Below are positions 1,983-14,930 of a DNA stretch of 16,061 nt, piece after piece. How positions within the stretch are numbered: position 1 is the first letter of the stretch; each line of letters begins with the position of its first letter. Source of the stretch: a virus (lineage: Duplodnaviria; Heunggongvirae; Uroviricota; Caudoviricetes); the IMG/VR virus record IMGVR_UViG_2778261537_000017, positions 1 to 16,061 of that record; one strand, written 5' to 3'. Both the position numbers and the translations under genes were made by a program. The notes beneath the pieces were generated by a model. It searched no databases and was not told where the DNA came from. It worked only from the letters and a program-made list of their open reading frames with translations.

Positions 1983-3014
1983 CTAATCGCCATCTTCCAG
2001 CAGGCGCACCATTGCCCCTGTTTCACTATCCAGGTTACGGATATAGTTCATGACAATATTTACGTTGGTCCAGCCACCAGCTTGCATGATCTCCGGTATT
2101 GAAACTCCGGCGCGGGCCATATCTCGCGCGGCTCCGACACGGGCACTGTGTCCAGACCAGGCCAGGTACCTCTGACCAGAGTCATCCTTAGCCCCGTAAA
2201 TCAATCGGTGAGTTGCTTCAAAAATCCCTTCCAGGGCGCGAGTTGATAGCTGGCTGGTGGATGATGGCGAGGCAACACCATTTTTTCTGACCCGGCAAAA
2301 CAAGTAGTTATTCGGATCATCAGCCACACCAGAGACGGAAATCCATCGCTCGACCAGTTTAGTTACCCCCAGGCTAAGTGCCTTCTCTACACCTGCGGTG
2401 CTAACCAGCGTTTTCGTTCTGCCAATATGGATTAACATTCTCCCACCGTCAGTACGTGAGATATCTTTAACCCTGATCCTGGCAATTTCGGCTATACGTA
2501 ACAGGGTGTTATAAGCAATCCCCAGAAATGCCAGATTCCGTATATCCTGGCAGCGATCGCTATTTCCCATGAGTGAACGAACCTGGTCGAAATCAGTGCG
2601 TTCGAACGCCAGCGCCTGTTTTGCACGCTCACCGGCATCAACGTTTTCTTTTCGGATCCGTCGCATGACCAGTGAAACAGCATTGCTGTCACTTGGTCGT
2701 GGCAGCCCGGACCGACGATGAAGCATATTTAGCTGGCCCAAATGTTGCTGGATAGTTTTCACTGCCAGACCGCGCGCCTGAAGATATAGAAGATAATCGC
2801 GAACATCTTCAGGTTCTGCGGGAAACCATTTCCGGTTATTCAACTTGCACCATGCCGCCCATGACCGGCAAACGGACAGAAGCATTTTCCAGGTATGCTC
2901 AGAAAACGCCTGGCGATCCCTGAACATGTCCATCAGGTTCTTGCGAACCTCATCACTCGTTGCATCGACCGGTAATGCAGGCAAATTTTGGTGTACGGTC
3001 AGTAAATTGGACAT
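1983..3014 (-). CDS. cre: Cre site-specific tyrosine recombinase, 343 aa
   Basis: Translation MSNLLTVHQNLPALPVDATSDEVRKNLMDMF... matches P1 Cre along its length as I recall it. Catalytic residues are in place (GHSARVGAAR, GGWTN, MNYIRN). loxP lies about 420 bp upstream. Confidence 0.97.
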   Translation of the reverse strand: MSNLLTVHQNLPALPVDATSDEVRKNLMDMFRDRQAFSEHTWKMLLSVCRSWAAWCKLNNRKWFPAEPEDVRDYLLYLQARGLAVKTIQQHLGQLNMLHRRSGLPRPSDSNAVSLVMRRIRKENVDAGERAKQALAFERTDFDQVRSLMGNSDRCQDIRNLAFLGIAYNTLLRIAEIARIRVKDISRTDGGRMLIHIGRTKTLVSTAGVEKALSLGVTKLVERWISVSGVADDPNNYLFCRVRKNGVASPSSTSQLSTRALEGIFEATHRLIYGAKDDSGQRYLAWSGHSARVGAARDMARAGVSIPEIMQAGGWTNVNIVMNYIRNLDSETGAMVRLLEDGD

Positions 3015-3432: not shown

Positions 3433-3466
3433 ATAACTTCGTATAATGTATGCTATACGAAGTTAT
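3433..3466 (+). other. loxP recombination site (13-bp arm, 8-bp spacer, 13-bp arm)
   Basis: Exact ATAACTTCGTATA-ATGTATGC-TATACGAAGTTAT. Confidence 0.97.
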
Positions 3467-3586: not shown

Positions 3587-3613
3587 TTGACAATTGCTCT
3601 AATAAATTATAGT
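3587..3613 (+). promoter_or_regulatory. Promoter (TTGACA ... TATAGT) with an overlapping C1 operator, directed toward coi and c1
   Basis: TTGACA at 3587-3592 is followed directly by ATTGCTCTAATAAATTA (3593-3609; 16/17 to the operator consensus) and a TATAGT -10-like hexamer. Confidence 0.65.
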
Positions 3614-3847
3614 TTTGCCGCCGTTTCGTAATACGACTTTGGATTCACTATTTAATGTGTCTTCAGCGTTGTAGAGCGGCTCAGAAGGAAATGAGCAAAC
3701 AGGGAAACCTTATACAACGGCATTACAGCTATGCATTGCTCATCTTACACACAGCGCAATGTTGTTAGATTACCCCAGCATGGATCATGGGTGAAACAGT
3801 AGGTCAGAGCTTCAGGCTCTGTGTTGTCAATACAGTGAGGCATAATT

Positions 3848-4057
3848 ATGGCTTTCATTCCACCAACCATCGACGACGTTAGACATTGCTCTAACGCTTT
3901 ATCTGTAGACCCCGCCGAAACCGACGCTGCCCGCGCCATTGCTGAACACTACTCAAAGATATCCAATCAGGAGTACCGCATCACCCAAGACGACCTGGAT
4001 GATCTCACTGACACAATCGAATATCTCATGGCCACTAACCAGCCAGACTCACAATAA
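3848..4057 (+). CDS. coi: Coi, C1-repressor inactivator, 69 aa
   Basis: Complete 69-aa ORF with a GTGAGG RBS, immediately upstream of c1 and downstream of the operator-controlled promoter. Size and position match P1 coi. Confidence 0.8.
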   Translation: MAFIPPTIDDVRHCSNALSVDPAETDAARAIAEHYSKISNQEYRITQDDLDDLTDTIEYLMATNQPDSQ

Positions 4058-4073
4058 ATGCACTAATAAATCT
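4057..4073 (+). promoter_or_regulatory. C1 operator-like site overlapping the coi stop
   Basis: aatgcactaataaatct matches the operator consensus at 14/17. Confidence 0.45.
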
Positions 4074-4103
4074 ATTATTTTCGTTGGATCCTTCTATAAT
4101 GGT

Positions 4104-4144
4104 GGCCAACAACTCCCAGTGTAATCCGCTGTGAGTTGTTGGCC
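4104..4144 (+). other. Perfect 12-bp inverted repeat with a 17-nt loop in the c1 leader
   Basis: GGCCAACAACTC (4104-4115) and GAGTTGTTGGCC (4133-4144), preceded by TATAAT (4094-4099) and followed by the c1 RBS GGAGGAGG. Confidence 0.5.
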
Positions 4145-4167
4145 ATGTCAATTCTGGAGGAGGATCA

Positions 4168-5019
4168 ATGATAAATTATGTCTACGGCGAACAACTGTAC
4201 CAGGAGTTCGTCAGCTTCAGGGATCTCTTTCTAAAAAAAGCTGTTGCACGCGCCCAACACGTTGATGCCGCCAGCGACGGTCGTCCTGTTCGCCCGGTTG
4301 TCGTTCTGCCGTTCAAAGAAACAGACAGCATTCAGGCTGAAATTGATAAATGGACTTTAATGGCGCGGGAACTGGAACAGTACCCAGACCTCAATATCCC
4401 AAAGACTATTTTATATCCAGTGCCTAACATCCTTCGCGGTGTGCGTAAGGTTACGACTTATCAGACAGAAGCTGTGAACAGCGTCAACATGACCGCTGGC
4501 CGCATTATTCATCTGATTGATAAGGACATTCGCATCCAGAAAAGCGCGGGGATCAATGAGCACAGTGCGAAATACATAGAGAACCTGGAAGCAACAAAAG
4601 AGCTAATGAAGCAGTACCCGGAGGATGAAAAATTCCGTATGCGTGTACACGGCTTTAGCGAAACAATGCTGCGCGTCCACTACATTTCCAGTAGCCCTAA
4701 CTACAATGATGGTAAATCAGTTAGTTACCATGTGCCGCTGTGTGGTGTGTTTATCTGCGATGAAACTCTCCGTGATGGAATCATCATCAACGGTGAATTC
4801 GAGAAAGCAAAATTTAGCCTTTATGACTCTATAGAACCGATCATCTGCGACCGCTGGCCGCAGGCAAAAATATATCGCCTGGCAGATATTGAAAATGTAA
4901 AAAAACAAATTGCCATCACTCGCGAAGAGAAAAAGGTCAAATCAGCCGCATCAGTTACGCGCAGCCGTAACACTAAGAAGGGGCAGCCAGTAAACGACAA
5001 CCCCGAAAGCGCGCAATAG
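4168..5019 (+). CDS. c1: C1 repressor of lysogeny, 283 aa
   Basis: Complete ORF MINYVYGEQLYQEFVSF... with a strong GGAGGAGG RBS. Length and N-terminus match P1 C1 as recalled, and cognate operator sites are present in the window. Confidence 0.9.
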   Translation: MINYVYGEQLYQEFVSFRDLFLKKAVARAQHVDAASDGRPVRPVVVLPFKETDSIQAEIDKWTLMARELEQYPDLNIPKTILYPVPNILRGVRKVTTYQTEAVNSVNMTAGRIIHLIDKDIRIQKSAGINEHSAKYIENLEATKELMKQYPEDEKFRMRVHGFSETMLRVHYISSSPNYNDGKSVSYHVPLCGVFICDETLRDGIIINGEFEKAKFSLYDSIEPIICDRWPQAKIYRLADIENVKKQIAITREEKKVKSAASVTRSRNTKKGQPVNDNPESAQ

Positions 5020-5043
5020 TTTCTATCCGGCATGGTCAATGAG

Positions 5044-6528
5044 TTATTCATTAAGCCATGCCAGAGCTTCATCAACCTGCGCTTCGTCTTCGACGCTAAG
5101 CACTTCATCCTGGGGAACATAATCAGCCAGCATAGCGAAACAATATGTATCCCAATGGTCTGGTGAGTGCAGGTTGAGTTTTTTCTTCATATCCTCCTTA
5201 CTCATCACCTTCCATTGACCTGCGGAGTTAATCCCTACAGGGATTTTCGACGCTTCCTCAATAGTTTCATTACCCTTATCCAGTCTCATACGACCAGATT
5301 TTACGGCCTCTGCGGCTTGAACGTTGGCATAAGCACGTTTATCAAAGTACAGGCTCTTATCTTCACGGCTATGCATCTTTTTACCCCAGCGTATACGCTG
5401 TACGGTAATACCATAATACTCGTACATCAGATCCGCCGTTGCTTTACCCAGGCCATCGCCGTCTATCGCTATGGTGATATTGGGGAATCGCTCAGGATTA
5501 CATTCTGCGAAAATTTTGGCGGCAAGCTGCGTTTCTGTAACGTCTGTGTATTCCAGCATTCGATAGTTGATTACACGGCGTTTATTTCGCTGGCCGGACA
5601 CCATCATGATATTGATAACGGACTTATCCCGTCCCGTACCACCAGCAACGTCCACACATGCAAGCCAGCCCCATCCTTTTGCAATCTTGACTTTCCGCCG
5701 CGTTGCACGTTCAACCTCATCACGCCCAAGAAGGAAGCCATCCTGTGATTTAGGGAATAGGCCGCGTACCTTAATCATGTACATAGGGTTATCACGCCCG
5801 CCGTACTCCGCCAGCTTCATTTTGATAAATGCTGGCGTTACCAACGGTGATTCCTCACTGTTAAGCGTGATCGCCGTATAAACGCCATCAGGGTTACCAG
5901 GACGCTTGGCCAGTTTATGGTGTGTATCGTAGAAATAGCCGCTTGGGCGTGTAGGCTGTGACAGCAATAAGATGCGGTTATCCTGTCCGGTAAGAGCACC
6001 GGTGATGATACCGAAAGCTCTATCACTGACACCGGAGGCTTCATCGATAATATACAGAAGATGATCTGCGTGTTCACCGGCGAGAGCTTCTTCACTTCCC
6101 AGACGAAAGCCCTTCGGTACTACAGTCCATACACCTTTACCAGTAATCTCATAGAAAGCGGTTTCTGTCAGAACAAAATAATCAGCAAGCCATGGGAAAC
6201 GGCTGGTGGCAGTAGCCCAGTTTATCTTGATGTACTTGAATATACCGGTCATTACCTGCTGAATTTTGTTCGCAACGATAATGGCACGGGCACCTGGATA
6301 CATGATTATGAACAACATGATCATGATAGAAGTCATGTCTGATTTCCCGGTACCGTGACCAGACGAAACAGATGTCTTGCTACCCTGTTCCTGCACAGAC
6401 TCAATAATCAGATCCTGCTGCCAGGTAGGTGTTTTGCCGAACAAAACATCAGCGGCAGCAATCCAGTCATAACGATATAGCGCCACCAGCTCGCGCCAAC
6501 GTGGATCTGTTACGCAACTTCTGGCCAT
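5044..6528 (-). CDS. pacB: PacB, terminase large subunit, 494 aa
   Basis: Walker A-like SSGHGTGKS and Walker B-like [10 protein letters not shown]. Its ATG overlaps the pacA stop (ATGA at 6526-6530). Confidence 0.88.
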
Positions 6529-14793: not shown

Positions 14794-14908
14794 GCCGGAT
14801 GCAGCGTGAACGCCTTATCCGGCCTACGGCTCGGATTTGTAGGCCTGATAAGACGCGTCAGCGTCGCATCAGGCACAGGATGCGGCGTAAAATGCCTTAT
14901 CCGGCATT
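14794..14908. repeat. REP/BIME cluster (three REP units in alternating orientation) between nrdA and nrdB
   Basis: GCCGGATGCAGCGTGAACGCCTTATCCGGCCTAC (14794-14827), the inverted copy GTAGGCCTGATAAGACGCG...CGCATCAGGC (14839-14874), and GATGCGGCGTAAAATGCCTTATCCGGC (about 14878-14906). Confidence 0.85.
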
Positions 14909-14930
14909 AAACTCCCAACAGGACACACTC

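What the first reader, a model, noticed from the sequence alone, without database searches (positions are those of the whole stretch)
4104..4144. Perfect 12-bp inverted repeat immediately upstream of the c1 ribosome-binding site
GGCCAACAACTC and its exact complement, separated by 17 nt, lie between a TATAAT hexamer and the c1 RBS. A perfect 12-bp stem is unlikely by chance. It could be an RNA processing or attenuation structure in the coi-c1 transcript, or a dimeric protein-binding site controlling repressor synthesis.
Basis: seen in the sequence. Interest (0 to 1): 0.45.

Follow-up and report, generated by a model that had tools for sequence, protein, structure and literature searches.

The report
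Conserved RNA hairpin in P1 repressor leader
The inverted repeat just upstream of the phage P1 master-repressor gene c1 is a real, evolutionarily maintained RNA stem-loop in the c1 messenger leader, not a protein-binding site. It probably makes repressor synthesis depend on which of the two promoters made the transcript.

Summary
The window is a P1-like phage-plasmid. Perfect arms are 13 nt (4103-4115/4133-4145) and extend to 17 bp with one C/U mismatch and a 9-nt loop. The repeat lies between the annotated Pc1 -10 box (TATAAT, 4095-4100) and the c1 Shine-Dalgarno sequence (4156-4163). It is the most stable local fold in the 16-kb window.

It is a sense-strand RNA structure. Eight lineages of coi-c1 elements have a 14-19 bp hairpin starting 1-4 nt after an invariant TATAAT, with very different sequences. 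Seven double compensatory changes were found, four of them between two P1 alleles. About 14 G.U pairs occur against one A.C apposition. No U-tract is conserved and arm sequences are not conserved, so a terminator or a protein site is unlikely.

Best mechanism (inferred): Pc1 transcripts start inside the stem and carry a 5'-terminal hairpin with a free ribosome-binding site. In read-through coi-c1 transcripts, the full hairpin clamps a pyrimidine tract (4081-4096, upstream of the Pc1 start) onto the c1 ribosome-binding site. This resembles IS10/IS50 fold-back inhibition.

The hairpin is not annotated in P1 or P7 records and has no Rfam match. The classic P1 papers could not be read.

The parts
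3848..4057 (+). coi (C1 inactivator, 69 aa), the upstream gene of the coi-c1 operon. Transcripts from P1coi read through it into the leader.
   Evidence: ORF list. Annotated coi in phiW39, SJ46, P1 and P7 under the 98.5-99.9% identical match.
4057..4084 (.). Bivalent C1 operator Oc1ab (formerly Op99a/b), which overlaps the -35 region of Pc1.
   Evidence: Transferred from the AF234172 annotation (locus L001 608-635, ungapped offset +3449). The sequence AATGCACTAATAAATCTATT was read.
4095..4100 (+). Pc1 (formerly P99a) -10 hexamer TATAAT. The annotated -35 is TCTATT at 4071-4076.
   Evidence: AF234172 annotation. TATAAT is invariant in all 30 distinct leader sequences of eight lineages. The consensus promoter scan does not call it because the -35 is poor.
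4081..4096 (+). Proposed anti-SD / anti-AUG strand (UCGUUGGAUCCUUCUA). It lies in the Pc1 spacer and -10, so it is present only in RNA started upstream (P1coi).
   Evidence: It pairs with 4155-4171 in the minimum-free-energy fold of read-through RNA and in both RNAalifold consensus structures. Duplex energy is -16.8 kcal/mol against -8.2 +/- 2.4 for shuffles, p=0.003. AUCC is conserved throughout: T13 and C14 of alignment A4 are invariant, and A12 and C15 are at 90% or more.
4103..4119 (+). 5' arm of the hairpin (TGGCCAACAACTCCCAG). The predicted Pc1 start at 4107/4108 lies inside it.
   Evidence: Covariation count. The start position is inferred from the usual 7-8 nt distance from the -10; it has not been mapped.
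4120..4128 (+). Loop (TGTAATCCG). The fold adds two marginal apical pairs.
   Evidence: Loop substitutions in relatives (A4123T, A4123C, C4126T in P7) are tolerated.
4129..4145 (+). 3' arm of the hairpin (CTGTGAGTTGTTGGCCA).
4155..4171 (+). c1 translation-initiation region (U-GGAGGAGG-AUCA-AUG-A), the 3' strand of the proposed outer helix.
   Evidence: The predicted cost of freeing SD..AUG is 13.6 kcal/mol in read-through RNA and 4.9 in Pc1-start RNA. Native exceeds shuffled upstream sequence with p=0.015.
4168..5019 (+). c1 (primary repressor of lytic functions, 283 aa).
   Evidence: ORF list. The annotated C1 is 98.5-100% identical. Homologues carry Pfam PF27008 Phage_P7_repressor_C1.

Best explanation
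The inverted repeat encodes a sense-strand RNA stem-loop that forms the core of the c1 leader and acts in cis after transcription. The structure gives the two kinds of c1 mRNA different leaders. Transcripts from the C1-autoregulated promoter Pc1 start about 7-8 nt after TATAAT, inside or at the base of the stem. They therefore begin with a base-paired 5'-terminal hairpin, which is expected to protect the 5' end from RppH- and RNase E-dependent decay, and their ribosome-binding site is open. Transcripts that read through from P1coi contain the whole hairpin plus the pyrimidine tract just upstream of and overlapping the -10 box (4081-4096). The hairpin brings that tract next to the c1 Shine-Dalgarno sequence and AUG (4155-4171), and the two pair. 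As a result, c1 is translated poorly from the coi-c1 mRNA while coi is translated. What is shown here is the existence, conservation, covariation, strand polarity and fixed position of the hairpin. Predicted by folding in every lineage is the occlusion of the ribosome-binding site in read-through RNA only. The transcription start, any effect on half-life or translation, and the biological consequence (Coi in excess over C1 when P1coi fires) are inferred and untested.
For: Hairpin reality: statistics.

Conservation: eight lineages with C1 at 75-100% amino-acid identity all have an invariant TATAAT. In each, a 14-19 bp hairpin starts 1-4 nt after it, with dG of -19 to -31.5 kcal/mol and a -10-to-SD distance fixed at 53-55 nt. 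The stem sequences are very different.

Covariation: type A and type B P1 alleles have the same length and register. They show 4 double compensatory pairs, plus one mismatch repaired and one created. In total 5 pairs change on both sides against 0-1 in the slid controls, and 91% of cells are paired against 22-51%. All three states C-G, U.G and U-A occur at pair 4106-4142. L230 versus L232 adds 2 double changes and JK004 versus S. arizonae adds 1.

Strand polarity: about 14 distinct G.U pairs against 1 A.C apposition. The + strand fold is more stable than the - strand fold in 7 of 8 lineages, for example type B at -24.5 versus -13.5.

Local constraint: 19 of 50 nt differ between A and B in 4100-4149, against about 2% in 2 kb of flanks, yet the fold is kept.

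5' cap geometry: the nucleotide 7-8 nt after the -10 is paired, or 1 nt from a stem of at least 9 bp, in all eight lineages.

Fold-back: SD unpaired probability is 0.01-0.35 in read-through RNA and 0.49-0.69 in Pc1-start RNA. The opening cost of SD..AUG is higher in read-through RNA by 2.6-8.8 kcal/mol in all eight lineages. It is also above shuffled-upstream controls in all seven tested, with p of 0.01-0.185. The outer helix appears in both RNAalifold consensus structures. There are lineage-specific extensions: UUGA/UCAA, AUAG/CUAU and UUGUA/UACAA. A distant lineage has the altered SD GGAGCA with a matching upstream UGCUC, p of 0.0015-0.003. Strong leader hairpins occur only where a co-oriented gene lies upstream; distant repressors next to a divergent integrase have none.

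Two-promoter operon: C1 is made from P1coi and Pc1, and Coi only from P1coi (PMC8546580; annotation).
Against: No transcription start, structure probing, half-life or translation data were available. The Pc1 start is inferred from spacing alone.

The outer helix has no clean double covariation within the coi-c1 group. Its variation is C/U opposite G. A cognate-versus-non-cognate swap test was not significant (p=0.18; p=0.03 in a version with one mis-assigned lineage). Single-lineage shuffle tests are weak in JK004, L226 and L232 (p of 0.14-0.19). Any pyrimidine-rich upstream sequence tends to pair with a strong SD in silico.

Some natural variants break a stem pair (G4133T, G4133A, G4105C, G4104T, T4136C) or weaken the anti-SD tract (GATCACTTT, GTTCCC).

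Compensatory-looking changes in a DNA palindrome can also arise by template-switch correction, although that would not create G.U pairs.

The effective number of independent lineages is small.
Confidence: 0.45

Rival explanations
1. The hairpin is only a 5'-terminal stabiliser. It caps Pc1 transcripts and prolongs the life of the weakly transcribed maintenance c1 mRNA. The predicted pairing of the upstream pyrimidine tract with the Shine-Dalgarno sequence is an in-silico by-product.
For: The predicted start (7-8 nt after the -10) is paired, or 1 nt from a stem of at least 9 bp, in all eight lineages. In JK004, S. arizonae and L226 the GC-rich inner stem begins exactly there. Pc1 has a poor -35 and so is a weak promoter. 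Statistical support for the outer helix is only moderate.
Against: Pairs on the 5' side of the predicted start are maintained. Pair 4106-4142 covaries as C-G, U.G and U-A. Outer helices at +1..+7 are kept by wobble changes or repositioned partners in S. arizonae, S. Newport and L226. Those nucleotides exist only in read-through RNA. The conserved AUCC-pyrimidine tract in a promoter spacer is left unexplained.
Confidence: 0.2
2. The long, irregular stem (hairpin plus outer helix, about 90 nt) is an RNase III or other processing site in the coi-c1 transcript. It would uncouple the fates of coi and c1 mRNA, as in the phage lambda N leader or T7 early mRNAs.
For: There are 17 near-perfect base pairs in P1, coaxial with a further 8-14 bp outer helix in read-through RNA. 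The full stem exists only in read-through RNA. coi and c1 mRNA levels can move independently after infection (bioRxiv 10.64898/2025.12.28.696737).
Against: Inner stems are only 9-13 bp in JK004, S. arizonae and L226, which is short for RNase III. No cleavage data exist. Nothing in the sequence could be tested for RNase III determinants with these tools.
Confidence: 0.12
3. The hairpin is a transcriptional attenuator, pause or terminator that stops part of the P1coi transcription before c1.
For: The stem is very stable and GC-rich, lies after the coi stop, and is followed by a moderately U-rich spacer (UGUCAAUUCU). L230 has UAGUUUUUU after its stem.
Against: The terminator scans flag nothing at the hairpin in the window or in L230. 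The U-run of L230 is UAGUAAUUC in its sister L232 while the stem covaries. By my hand calculation with the d'Aubenton-Carafa score (formula recalled from memory), P1 and JK004 fall well below zero. P1coi is reported to express c1.
Confidence: 0.06
4. The repeat is a DNA site for a dimeric protein, or a cruciform, that controls Pc1.
For: The perfect palindromic arms lie next to a promoter.
Against: Arm sequences are not conserved while C1 and Coi are: A and B arms differ by about 40% and other lineages are unrelated. Symmetry is kept through G.U pairs, which are G-T mismatches of symmetry in DNA, and the - strand fold is much weaker. The arms do not resemble the asymmetric 17-bp C1 operator. 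The centre-to-centre spacing of 26-29 bp is atypical for a dimer.
Confidence: 0.03
5. The repeat has no function. It is a chance or selfishly maintained quasi-palindrome, kept symmetric by template-switch correction.
For: Template switching can make both arms change together. Some natural variants carry unpaired positions.
Against: A hairpin persists at a fixed position in eight lineages despite complete sequence turnover, with a fixed -10-to-SD distance, a strand-specific wobble pattern and G.U intermediates. The chance expectation is 0.019 per window.
Confidence: 0.05

Closest known systems
Fold-back inhibition of read-through transcripts in IS10 (Tn10) and IS50 (Tn5) transposase genes (Davis, Simons and Kleckner 1985; Schulz and Reznikoff 1991; cited from memory, papers not held)
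   Same: The ribosome-binding site pairs with a segment that lies upstream of the gene's own transcription start. Only transcripts coming from outside promoters are translationally blocked; own-promoter transcripts lack the 5' strand. Here the 5' strand (4081-4096) overlaps the Pc1 spacer and -10 box.
   Different: In P1 the upstream promoter is part of the same regulatory operon (P1coi) rather than a fortuitous external promoter. The two strands are about 60 nt apart and are bridged by a conserved 17-bp hairpin. Nothing has been tested experimentally.
5'-terminal stem-loop mRNA stabilisers such as the ompA 5' UTR (Emory, Bouvet and Belasco 1992; from memory)
   Same: A stable stem-loop lies within 0-1 nt of the predicted 5' end of the Pc1 transcript in all eight lineages.
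   Different: The conserved pairing extends on the 5' side of the predicted start, so the element is larger than a cap hairpin. The start and half-life are unmeasured.
Phage lambda cI expressed from PRE and PRM with different leaders (from memory)
   Same: The master repressor is made from two promoters whose mRNAs differ at the 5' end and therefore in translation efficiency.
   Different: In lambda the maintenance transcript is leaderless and poorly translated, while the upstream (establishment) transcript is well translated. In P1 the prediction is the opposite polarity, and the upstream transcript also encodes the anti-repressor Coi.
Lambda N-leader and T7 early RNase III hairpins (from memory)
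   Same: A long irregular hairpin lies next to a ribosome-binding site in a phage regulatory or early transcript.
   Different: There is no evidence of cleavage, and the stems in several lineages are shorter than typical RNase III substrates.
Rfam families
   Same: Nothing matches at gathering score.
   Different: The best sub-threshold hits at the hairpin are psRNA14 (19.2 bits against a gathering score of 60, E=4.6) and AS-traG (16.8 against 58, E=9.9). Both are noise.

Membership tests
Conserved cis-acting RNA stem-loop (sense strand) | The structure is kept across relatives despite sequence change, with compensatory substitutions. | tested here: met
   Eight lineages. 5 pairs change on both sides between the A and B alleles against 0-1 in slid controls. 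There are 2 more double changes between L230 and L232 and 1 between JK004 and S. arizonae.
Conserved cis-acting RNA stem-loop (sense strand) | Strand polarity: wobble pairs valid on only one strand. | tested here: met
   About 14 G.U pairs against 1 A.C apposition. The + strand fold is more stable than the - strand fold in 7 of 8 lineages.
Fold-back inhibition (IS10/IS50 type) | The ribosome-binding site is complementary to a segment upstream of the gene's own promoter start. | tested here: inconclusive
   It is predicted in the minimum-free-energy and consensus folds of every lineage. The opening cost is higher by 2.6-8.8 kcal/mol. Against shuffles, p is 0.01-0.185. The swap test gives p=0.18. 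A distant lineage with a changed SD has a matching anti-SD.
Fold-back inhibition (IS10/IS50 type) | Own-promoter transcripts lack the 5' strand. | tested here: met
   The 5' strand 4081-4096 lies within the annotated Pc1 spacer and -10 (4095-4100), so it cannot be in Pc1 RNA. This relies on the GenBank promoter annotation; the start has not been mapped.
Fold-back inhibition (IS10/IS50 type) | Translation of read-through transcripts is reduced and is relieved by mutations in the 5' strand. | not testable with these tools
   Needs reporter fusions or toeprinting.
5'-terminal stem-loop stabiliser (ompA type) | The stem-loop leaves no more than about 2-4 unpaired nt at the 5' end of the mRNA. | tested here: inconclusive
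   The condition is met if the start is 7-8 nt after the -10, giving 0-1 unpaired nt in all eight lineages. The start has not been mapped.
5'-terminal stem-loop stabiliser (ompA type) | It lengthens mRNA half-life. | not testable with these tools
   Needs rifampicin chase experiments with stem mutants.
Intrinsic (Rho-independent) terminator | A U-tract immediately 3' of a GC-rich stem. | tested here: not met
   The tail is UGUCAAUUCU in P1. No terminator is called at the site. The U-run in L230 is not conserved in L232.
Palindromic operator for a dimeric DNA-binding protein | Half-site sequences are conserved among relatives that share the regulator, and symmetry is kept at the DNA level. | tested here: not met
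   Arms are 40% divergent between alleles whose C1 is 99-100% identical, and unrelated in other lineages. Symmetry is kept only as RNA wobble pairing.
C1 operator (ATTGCTCTAATAAATTT, asymmetric 17-mer) | A match to the operator consensus. | tested here: not met
   The arms GGCCAACAACTC / GAGTTGTTGGCC bear no resemblance to it. The real operators lie at 4057-4084 and 3885-3901.
RNase III processing site | About two turns of dsRNA and actual cleavage. | not testable with these tools
   There are 17 bp plus an outer helix in P1, but a 9-13 bp inner stem elsewhere. Cleavage cannot be assessed.
Any Rfam family | A score at or above the gathering threshold. | tested here: not met
   No match in the window at gathering score. 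Sub-threshold hits have E of 4.6 or worse.

The most novel reading that the evidence does not exclude
The hairpin is the clamp of a promoter-selective translational switch. c1 is essentially untranslatable from the coi-c1 read-through mRNA and translatable only from Pc1 mRNA. Firing of P1coi therefore yields Coi in excess over C1 and locks the lytic choice. The two sequence-divergent but isostructural hairpin alleles, each present in about half of natural P1-like plasmids, would be functionally equivalent versions maintained by compensatory evolution.
Probability: 0.3. Interest if true: 0.65.

Novelty: new member of a known kind. Interest (0 to 1): 0.5.

Why it matters
P1 is a classic model for the lysis-lysogeny decision and the prototype of widespread phage-plasmids. 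Current quantitative models of its decision equate 'free C1' with c1 mRNA minus coi mRNA. That assumes the bicistronic coi-c1 message yields C1 and Coi equally (PMC8546580).

A conserved leader structure that hides the c1 ribosome-binding site only in that message, and caps the Pc1 message, would add a post-transcriptional layer to immC control. It would explain how an anti-repressor encoded upstream of its own target on one transcript can win, and it gives a simple set of mutations to test.

Even on the minimal reading, it adds an unannotated, covariation-supported RNA element to the P1 and P7 maps. It also explains gene-caller errors in relatives, such as the false 21-aa extension of C1 through the hairpin.

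Tried and rejected
- **Rfam.** A permissive scan of the region and a gathering-score scan of the whole window gave only noise.
- **Terminator and promoter scans.** No terminator is called at the hairpin. Pc1 is not called because of its weak -35.
- **Repeated or mobile element.** The 53-nt hairpin matches only its own locus in phage records; the second 'place' per record is the palindrome hitting itself.
- **Genome-contig scan with a C1 alignment.** It returned only 4 near-identical loci. The first IMG/VR scan returned only 99-100% relatives. These were useful for population variants but not for deep covariation.
- **Distant C1-like repressors** (22-45% identity, next to a divergent integrase). 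They have no comparable leader hairpin, so they were not usable as homologous leaders.
- **Literature.** Lobocka 2004, Osborne 1989 and Velleman 1987 are not held. Full-text searches found no description of this hairpin or of a mapped Pc1 start. The search for a citable fold-back inhibition paper failed.
- **In-silico arm-complement mutants.** Ribosome-binding-site accessibility rose in all five lineages, but the mutant arms create new pairings, so the test is confounded.
- **Accessibility-versus-shuffle test.** It was weak, with p of 0.05-0.23.
- **Cognate/non-cognate swap test of the outer helix.** It was not significant, p=0.18.
- **Mini-ORF ATG 4099 to TGA 4134.** Rejected because the ATG is absent in type B.
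- **Alternative pairing of the right arm with 4186-4196 in c1.** It is not conserved in type B (sequence).
- **GC-rich discriminator (stringent control) idea.** Rejected because type B has ATAGGTC at that position.

Full report
**Context**

The window is a P1-like phage-plasmid. Positions 3600-5100 are 99.9% identical to phiW39 and SJ46, and 98.5% identical to P1. Using the richly annotated P1 record AF234172 (ungapped offset +3449), the region maps as follows:

| Feature | Window coordinates |
|---|---|
| P1coi promoter with operator Oc1d | 3587-3616 |
| imcA, imcB | within 3655-3882 |
| coi | 3848-4057 |
| Operator Oc1c | 3885-3901 |
| Bivalent operator Oc1ab | 4057-4084 |
| Pc1 (formerly P99a) -35, TCTATT | 4071-4076 |
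| Pc1 -10, TATAAT | 4095-4100 |
| c1 | 4168-5019 |
| pacB (convergent) | 5044-6528 |

Neither the P1 record (535 features) nor the P7 record annotates anything between the Pc1 -10 and c1.

**Observation**

It is slightly larger than described:
- The perfect arms are 13 nt (4103-4115 / 4133-4145).
- They extend to 17 nt (4103-4119 / 4129-4145) with a single C4116/U4132 mismatch and a 9-nt loop.

A perfect inverted repeat of 12 nt or more with a 3-40 nt spacer is expected 0.019 times per shuffled window. The only other one in the window is loxP, at 3433-3466. As RNA, it is the most stable 50-nt fold of the whole window on either strand, at -31.5 kcal/mol against a mean of -9.1 +/- 3.9. Its z-score is -8.8.

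**It is a conserved RNA structure of the sense strand**

Population data give 30 distinct leader sequences. The sources were about 200 IMG/VR loci (with some contigs duplicated between scans), PLSDB plasmids, and contigs found through C1 homologues. They fall into eight lineages with C1 at 75-100% amino-acid identity. All eight share the following:
- an invariant TATAAT;
- a hairpin whose first paired base is 1-4 nt after it;
- 14-19 base pairs, with dG of -19 to -31.5 kcal/mol;
- a -10-to-SD distance of 53-55 nt.

The stem sequences, however, fall into three very different classes: GGCCAACAACUC, ACA(C/U)YCCCC and GCGCACAYCC.

The most telling comparison is within P1 itself. Two alleles, A (this window) and B, each occur in roughly half of about 700 PLSDB P1-like plasmids: 332+27+4 records at 90% identity or more, against 339 at 80-90%. 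They differ at 19 of 50 positions in 4100-4149 but at only about 2% of positions in the 2 kb around it. They are colinear without gaps.

| Pair | Type A | Type B | Change |
|---|---|---|---|
| 4106-4142 | C-G | U-A | both sides |
| 4110-4138 | C-G | U-A | both sides |
| 4114-4134 | U-A | G-C | both sides |
| 4118-4130 | A-U | G-C | both sides |
| 4109-4139 | A-U | G.U | one side |
| 4113-4135 | C-G | U.G | one side |
| 4116-4132 | C/U mismatch | C-G | pair gained |
| 4115-4133 | C-G | A/G | pair lost |

For pair 4106-4142 the wobble intermediate U.G exists in both backgrounds.

The formal count gives 5 pairs with changes on both sides, against 0-1 in the six slid controls. It also gives 91% paired cells against 22-51% in the controls.

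Independent lineages add more. L230 versus L232 has two double changes, A-U to G-C and C-G to U-A. JK004 versus S. arizonae has one, U-A to C-G. S. arizonae versus S. Newport has wobble-preserving single changes.

Across lineages there are about 14 distinct G.U pairs against one A.C apposition. The + strand fold beats the - strand fold in 7 of 8 lineages, with type B at -24.5 versus -13.5. So the selected molecule is the c1-sense RNA.

**What this excludes**

- **A protein-binding DNA palindrome.** The half-sites are not conserved while the candidate regulators are, and the symmetry is RNA-type.
- **An intrinsic terminator.** The tail is UGUCAAUUCU. Scans find nothing. The only U-run, in L230, is lost in L232 although the stem covaries.
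- **A repeated or mobile element.** The hairpin is unique in P1-type genomes.
- **An Rfam family.** No family matches.

**Mechanism**

Two geometric facts stand out. First, the base 7-8 nt after the -10, which is the usual start distance, is itself paired or is 1 nt from a stem of at least 9 bp in all eight lineages. In three lineages the GC-rich inner stem begins exactly there. A Pc1 transcript would therefore begin with a 5'-terminal stem-loop, the classic protection against 5'-end-dependent decay. This link to stabilisation rests on established knowledge and was not tested here.

Second, pairing is nevertheless maintained on the 5' side of that point. Pair 4106-4142 covaries. Outer helices at +1..+7 are kept in S. 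arizonae, S. Newport and L226 by wobble changes or by a relocated partner. Those nucleotides exist only in RNA that started upstream, that is, from P1coi. P1coi is known to transcribe coi and c1 together, whereas Pc1 gives c1 alone (PMC8546580).

Folding read-through RNA shows what the full hairpin could be for. In every lineage the pyrimidine tract just 5' of and overlapping TATAAT pairs with the Shine-Dalgarno sequence, with the hairpin closing the intervening loop. In P1 and L230 the pairing also covers the AUG. The P1 tract is UCGUUG-G-AUCCUUCU at 4081-4095, and AUCC is conserved across lineages. Both RNAalifold consensus structures contain this outer helix.

| Measure | Read-through RNA | Pc1-start RNA |
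|---|---|---|
| Predicted SD unpaired probability | 0.01-0.35 | 0.49-0.69 |
| Cost of freeing SD..AUG (kcal/mol) | 7.8-13.6 | 4.1-5.9 |

The opening cost is higher for read-through RNA in all eight lineages. It also exceeds shuffled-upstream controls in all seven lineages tested, with p values of 0.015, 0.02, 0.14, 0.025, 0.15, 0.01 and 0.185. The P1 duplex is -16.8 kcal/mol against -8.2 +/- 2.4 for shuffles, p=0.003.

Lineage-specific extensions next to the invariant UCC/GGA core look co-adapted: UUGA/UCAA in P1, AUAG/CUAU in JK004 and UUGUA/UACAA in L230. A more distant lineage (C1 at 58-60% identity, with a different upstream gene) uses the unusual SD GGAGCA. It has a matching UGCUC upstream, plus pairing over the start codon, with p of 0.0015 and 0.003.

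Strong leader hairpins are found only where a co-oriented gene precedes c1. Distant repressors next to a divergent integrase have none. Because the 5' strand lies inside the Pc1 spacer and -10, it cannot be part of a Pc1 transcript. This is the logic of IS10/IS50 fold-back inhibition of read-through transcripts (from memory).

**Caveats**

- The outer helix lacks clean double covariation inside the coi-c1 group; its changes are C/U opposite G.
- A cognate-versus-non-cognate swap test was not significant (p=0.18).
- Three lineages are individually weak in the shuffle test.
- The arm-complement test is confounded.
- Some natural variants break a stem pair or weaken the tract.
- The number of independent lineages is small.
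- The Pc1 start is inferred from spacing, not mapped.
- The primary P1 literature could not be read, so an earlier mention of this dyad symmetry cannot be excluded.

**Verdict**

The protein-site reading is not.
- I put about 0.85 on 'functional sense-strand RNA stem-loop in the c1 leader'. Within that, I put about 0.45 on the dual-leader model (5' cap for Pc1 mRNA plus a clamp for ribosome-binding-site occlusion in coi-c1 mRNA), 0.2 on cap only, 0.12 on a processing site and 0.06 on attenuation.
- In kind it is an ordinary cis-regulatory leader structure, so it is a new member of a known kind.
- It sits at the heart of a textbook genetic switch. It also bears directly on an assumption in current models of the P1 decision, namely that coi-c1 mRNA yields C1 and Coi equally.

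Noticed in passing
window 3433-3466: loxP: 13-bp perfect inverted repeats with an 8-bp spacer. It is the only other perfect inverted repeat of 12 nt or more in the window. cre lies at 1983-3014 on the minus strand.
   Followed up: partly
window 4100-4149, compared with L009, L053 and L062: There are two isostructural hairpin alleles, A and B. They differ at 19 of 50 nt while 2 kb of flanks differ by about 2%. Each is present in about half of roughly 700 PLSDB P1-like plasmids. U.G intermediates of the C-G to U-A switch at pair 4106-4142 occur in both backgrounds. Why the divergence is concentrated in exactly this patch is unexplained.
   Followed up: partly
window 4186-4196: GGCGAACAACT in c1 codons 7-10 is a near copy of the left arm. 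It is therefore complementary to the right arm 4134-4144 (10 of 11), giving a possible alternative pairing in Pc1 transcripts. The complementarity is not kept with the type B arm.
   Followed up: partly
window about 5033 onward, compared with L009: In type B elements, homology to the window stops about 14 nt after the c1 stop. No pacB is found within 1.2 kb downstream. A GC-rich hairpin (ATGCCCGGCATCAACCGGGCAT) follows c1 instead.
   Followed up: partly
window 5017-5071 (minus strand) and 14807-14910 (both strands): These are the next most stable local folds in the window, at -23 to -26 kcal/mol. The first lies between the convergent c1 and pacB stops and could be a shared terminator.
   Followed up: no
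L227 about 780-860; L229 about 750-825: This is a distant C1 lineage (58-60% amino-acid identity, with a 99-aa ORF upstream instead of coi). The SD is GGAGCA, with a matching upstream UGCUC. The start-codon region pairs with GAUCUACUAU. Duplex energies are -19.0 and -17.7 kcal/mol against -8 to -9 for shuffles. An A/T-rich 10-bp palindrome, CTCTAAAAAA-N5-TTTTTTAGAG (probably a bivalent operator), lies just upstream.
   Followed up: partly
L232 801-863: The gene caller started c1 at the ATG inside TATAATATG. This produces a false 21-aa N-terminal extension translated through the hairpin. The true start is ATGGTCAAC at 864.
   Followed up: yes
window 4099-4134: An 11-codon mini-ORF (ATG inside TATAATG to TGA) runs through the left arm and loop. 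It has no SD and its ATG is absent in type B (TATAATATAG). It was judged not to be real.
   Followed up: yes
window 4087-4090 and 4163-4166: Two GATC (Dam) sites sit in the two strands of the proposed anti-SD/SD helix. One is in the Pc1 spacer and the other lies between the SD and the AUG. They are not conserved in S. arizonae, L226 or L230.
   Followed up: no
window 3877-3896: The scan flags a terminator-like hairpin inside coi that overlaps operator Oc1c (CGTTAGACATTGCTCTAACG followed by CTTTATCTGT). It is probably just the operator sequence context.
   Followed up: no
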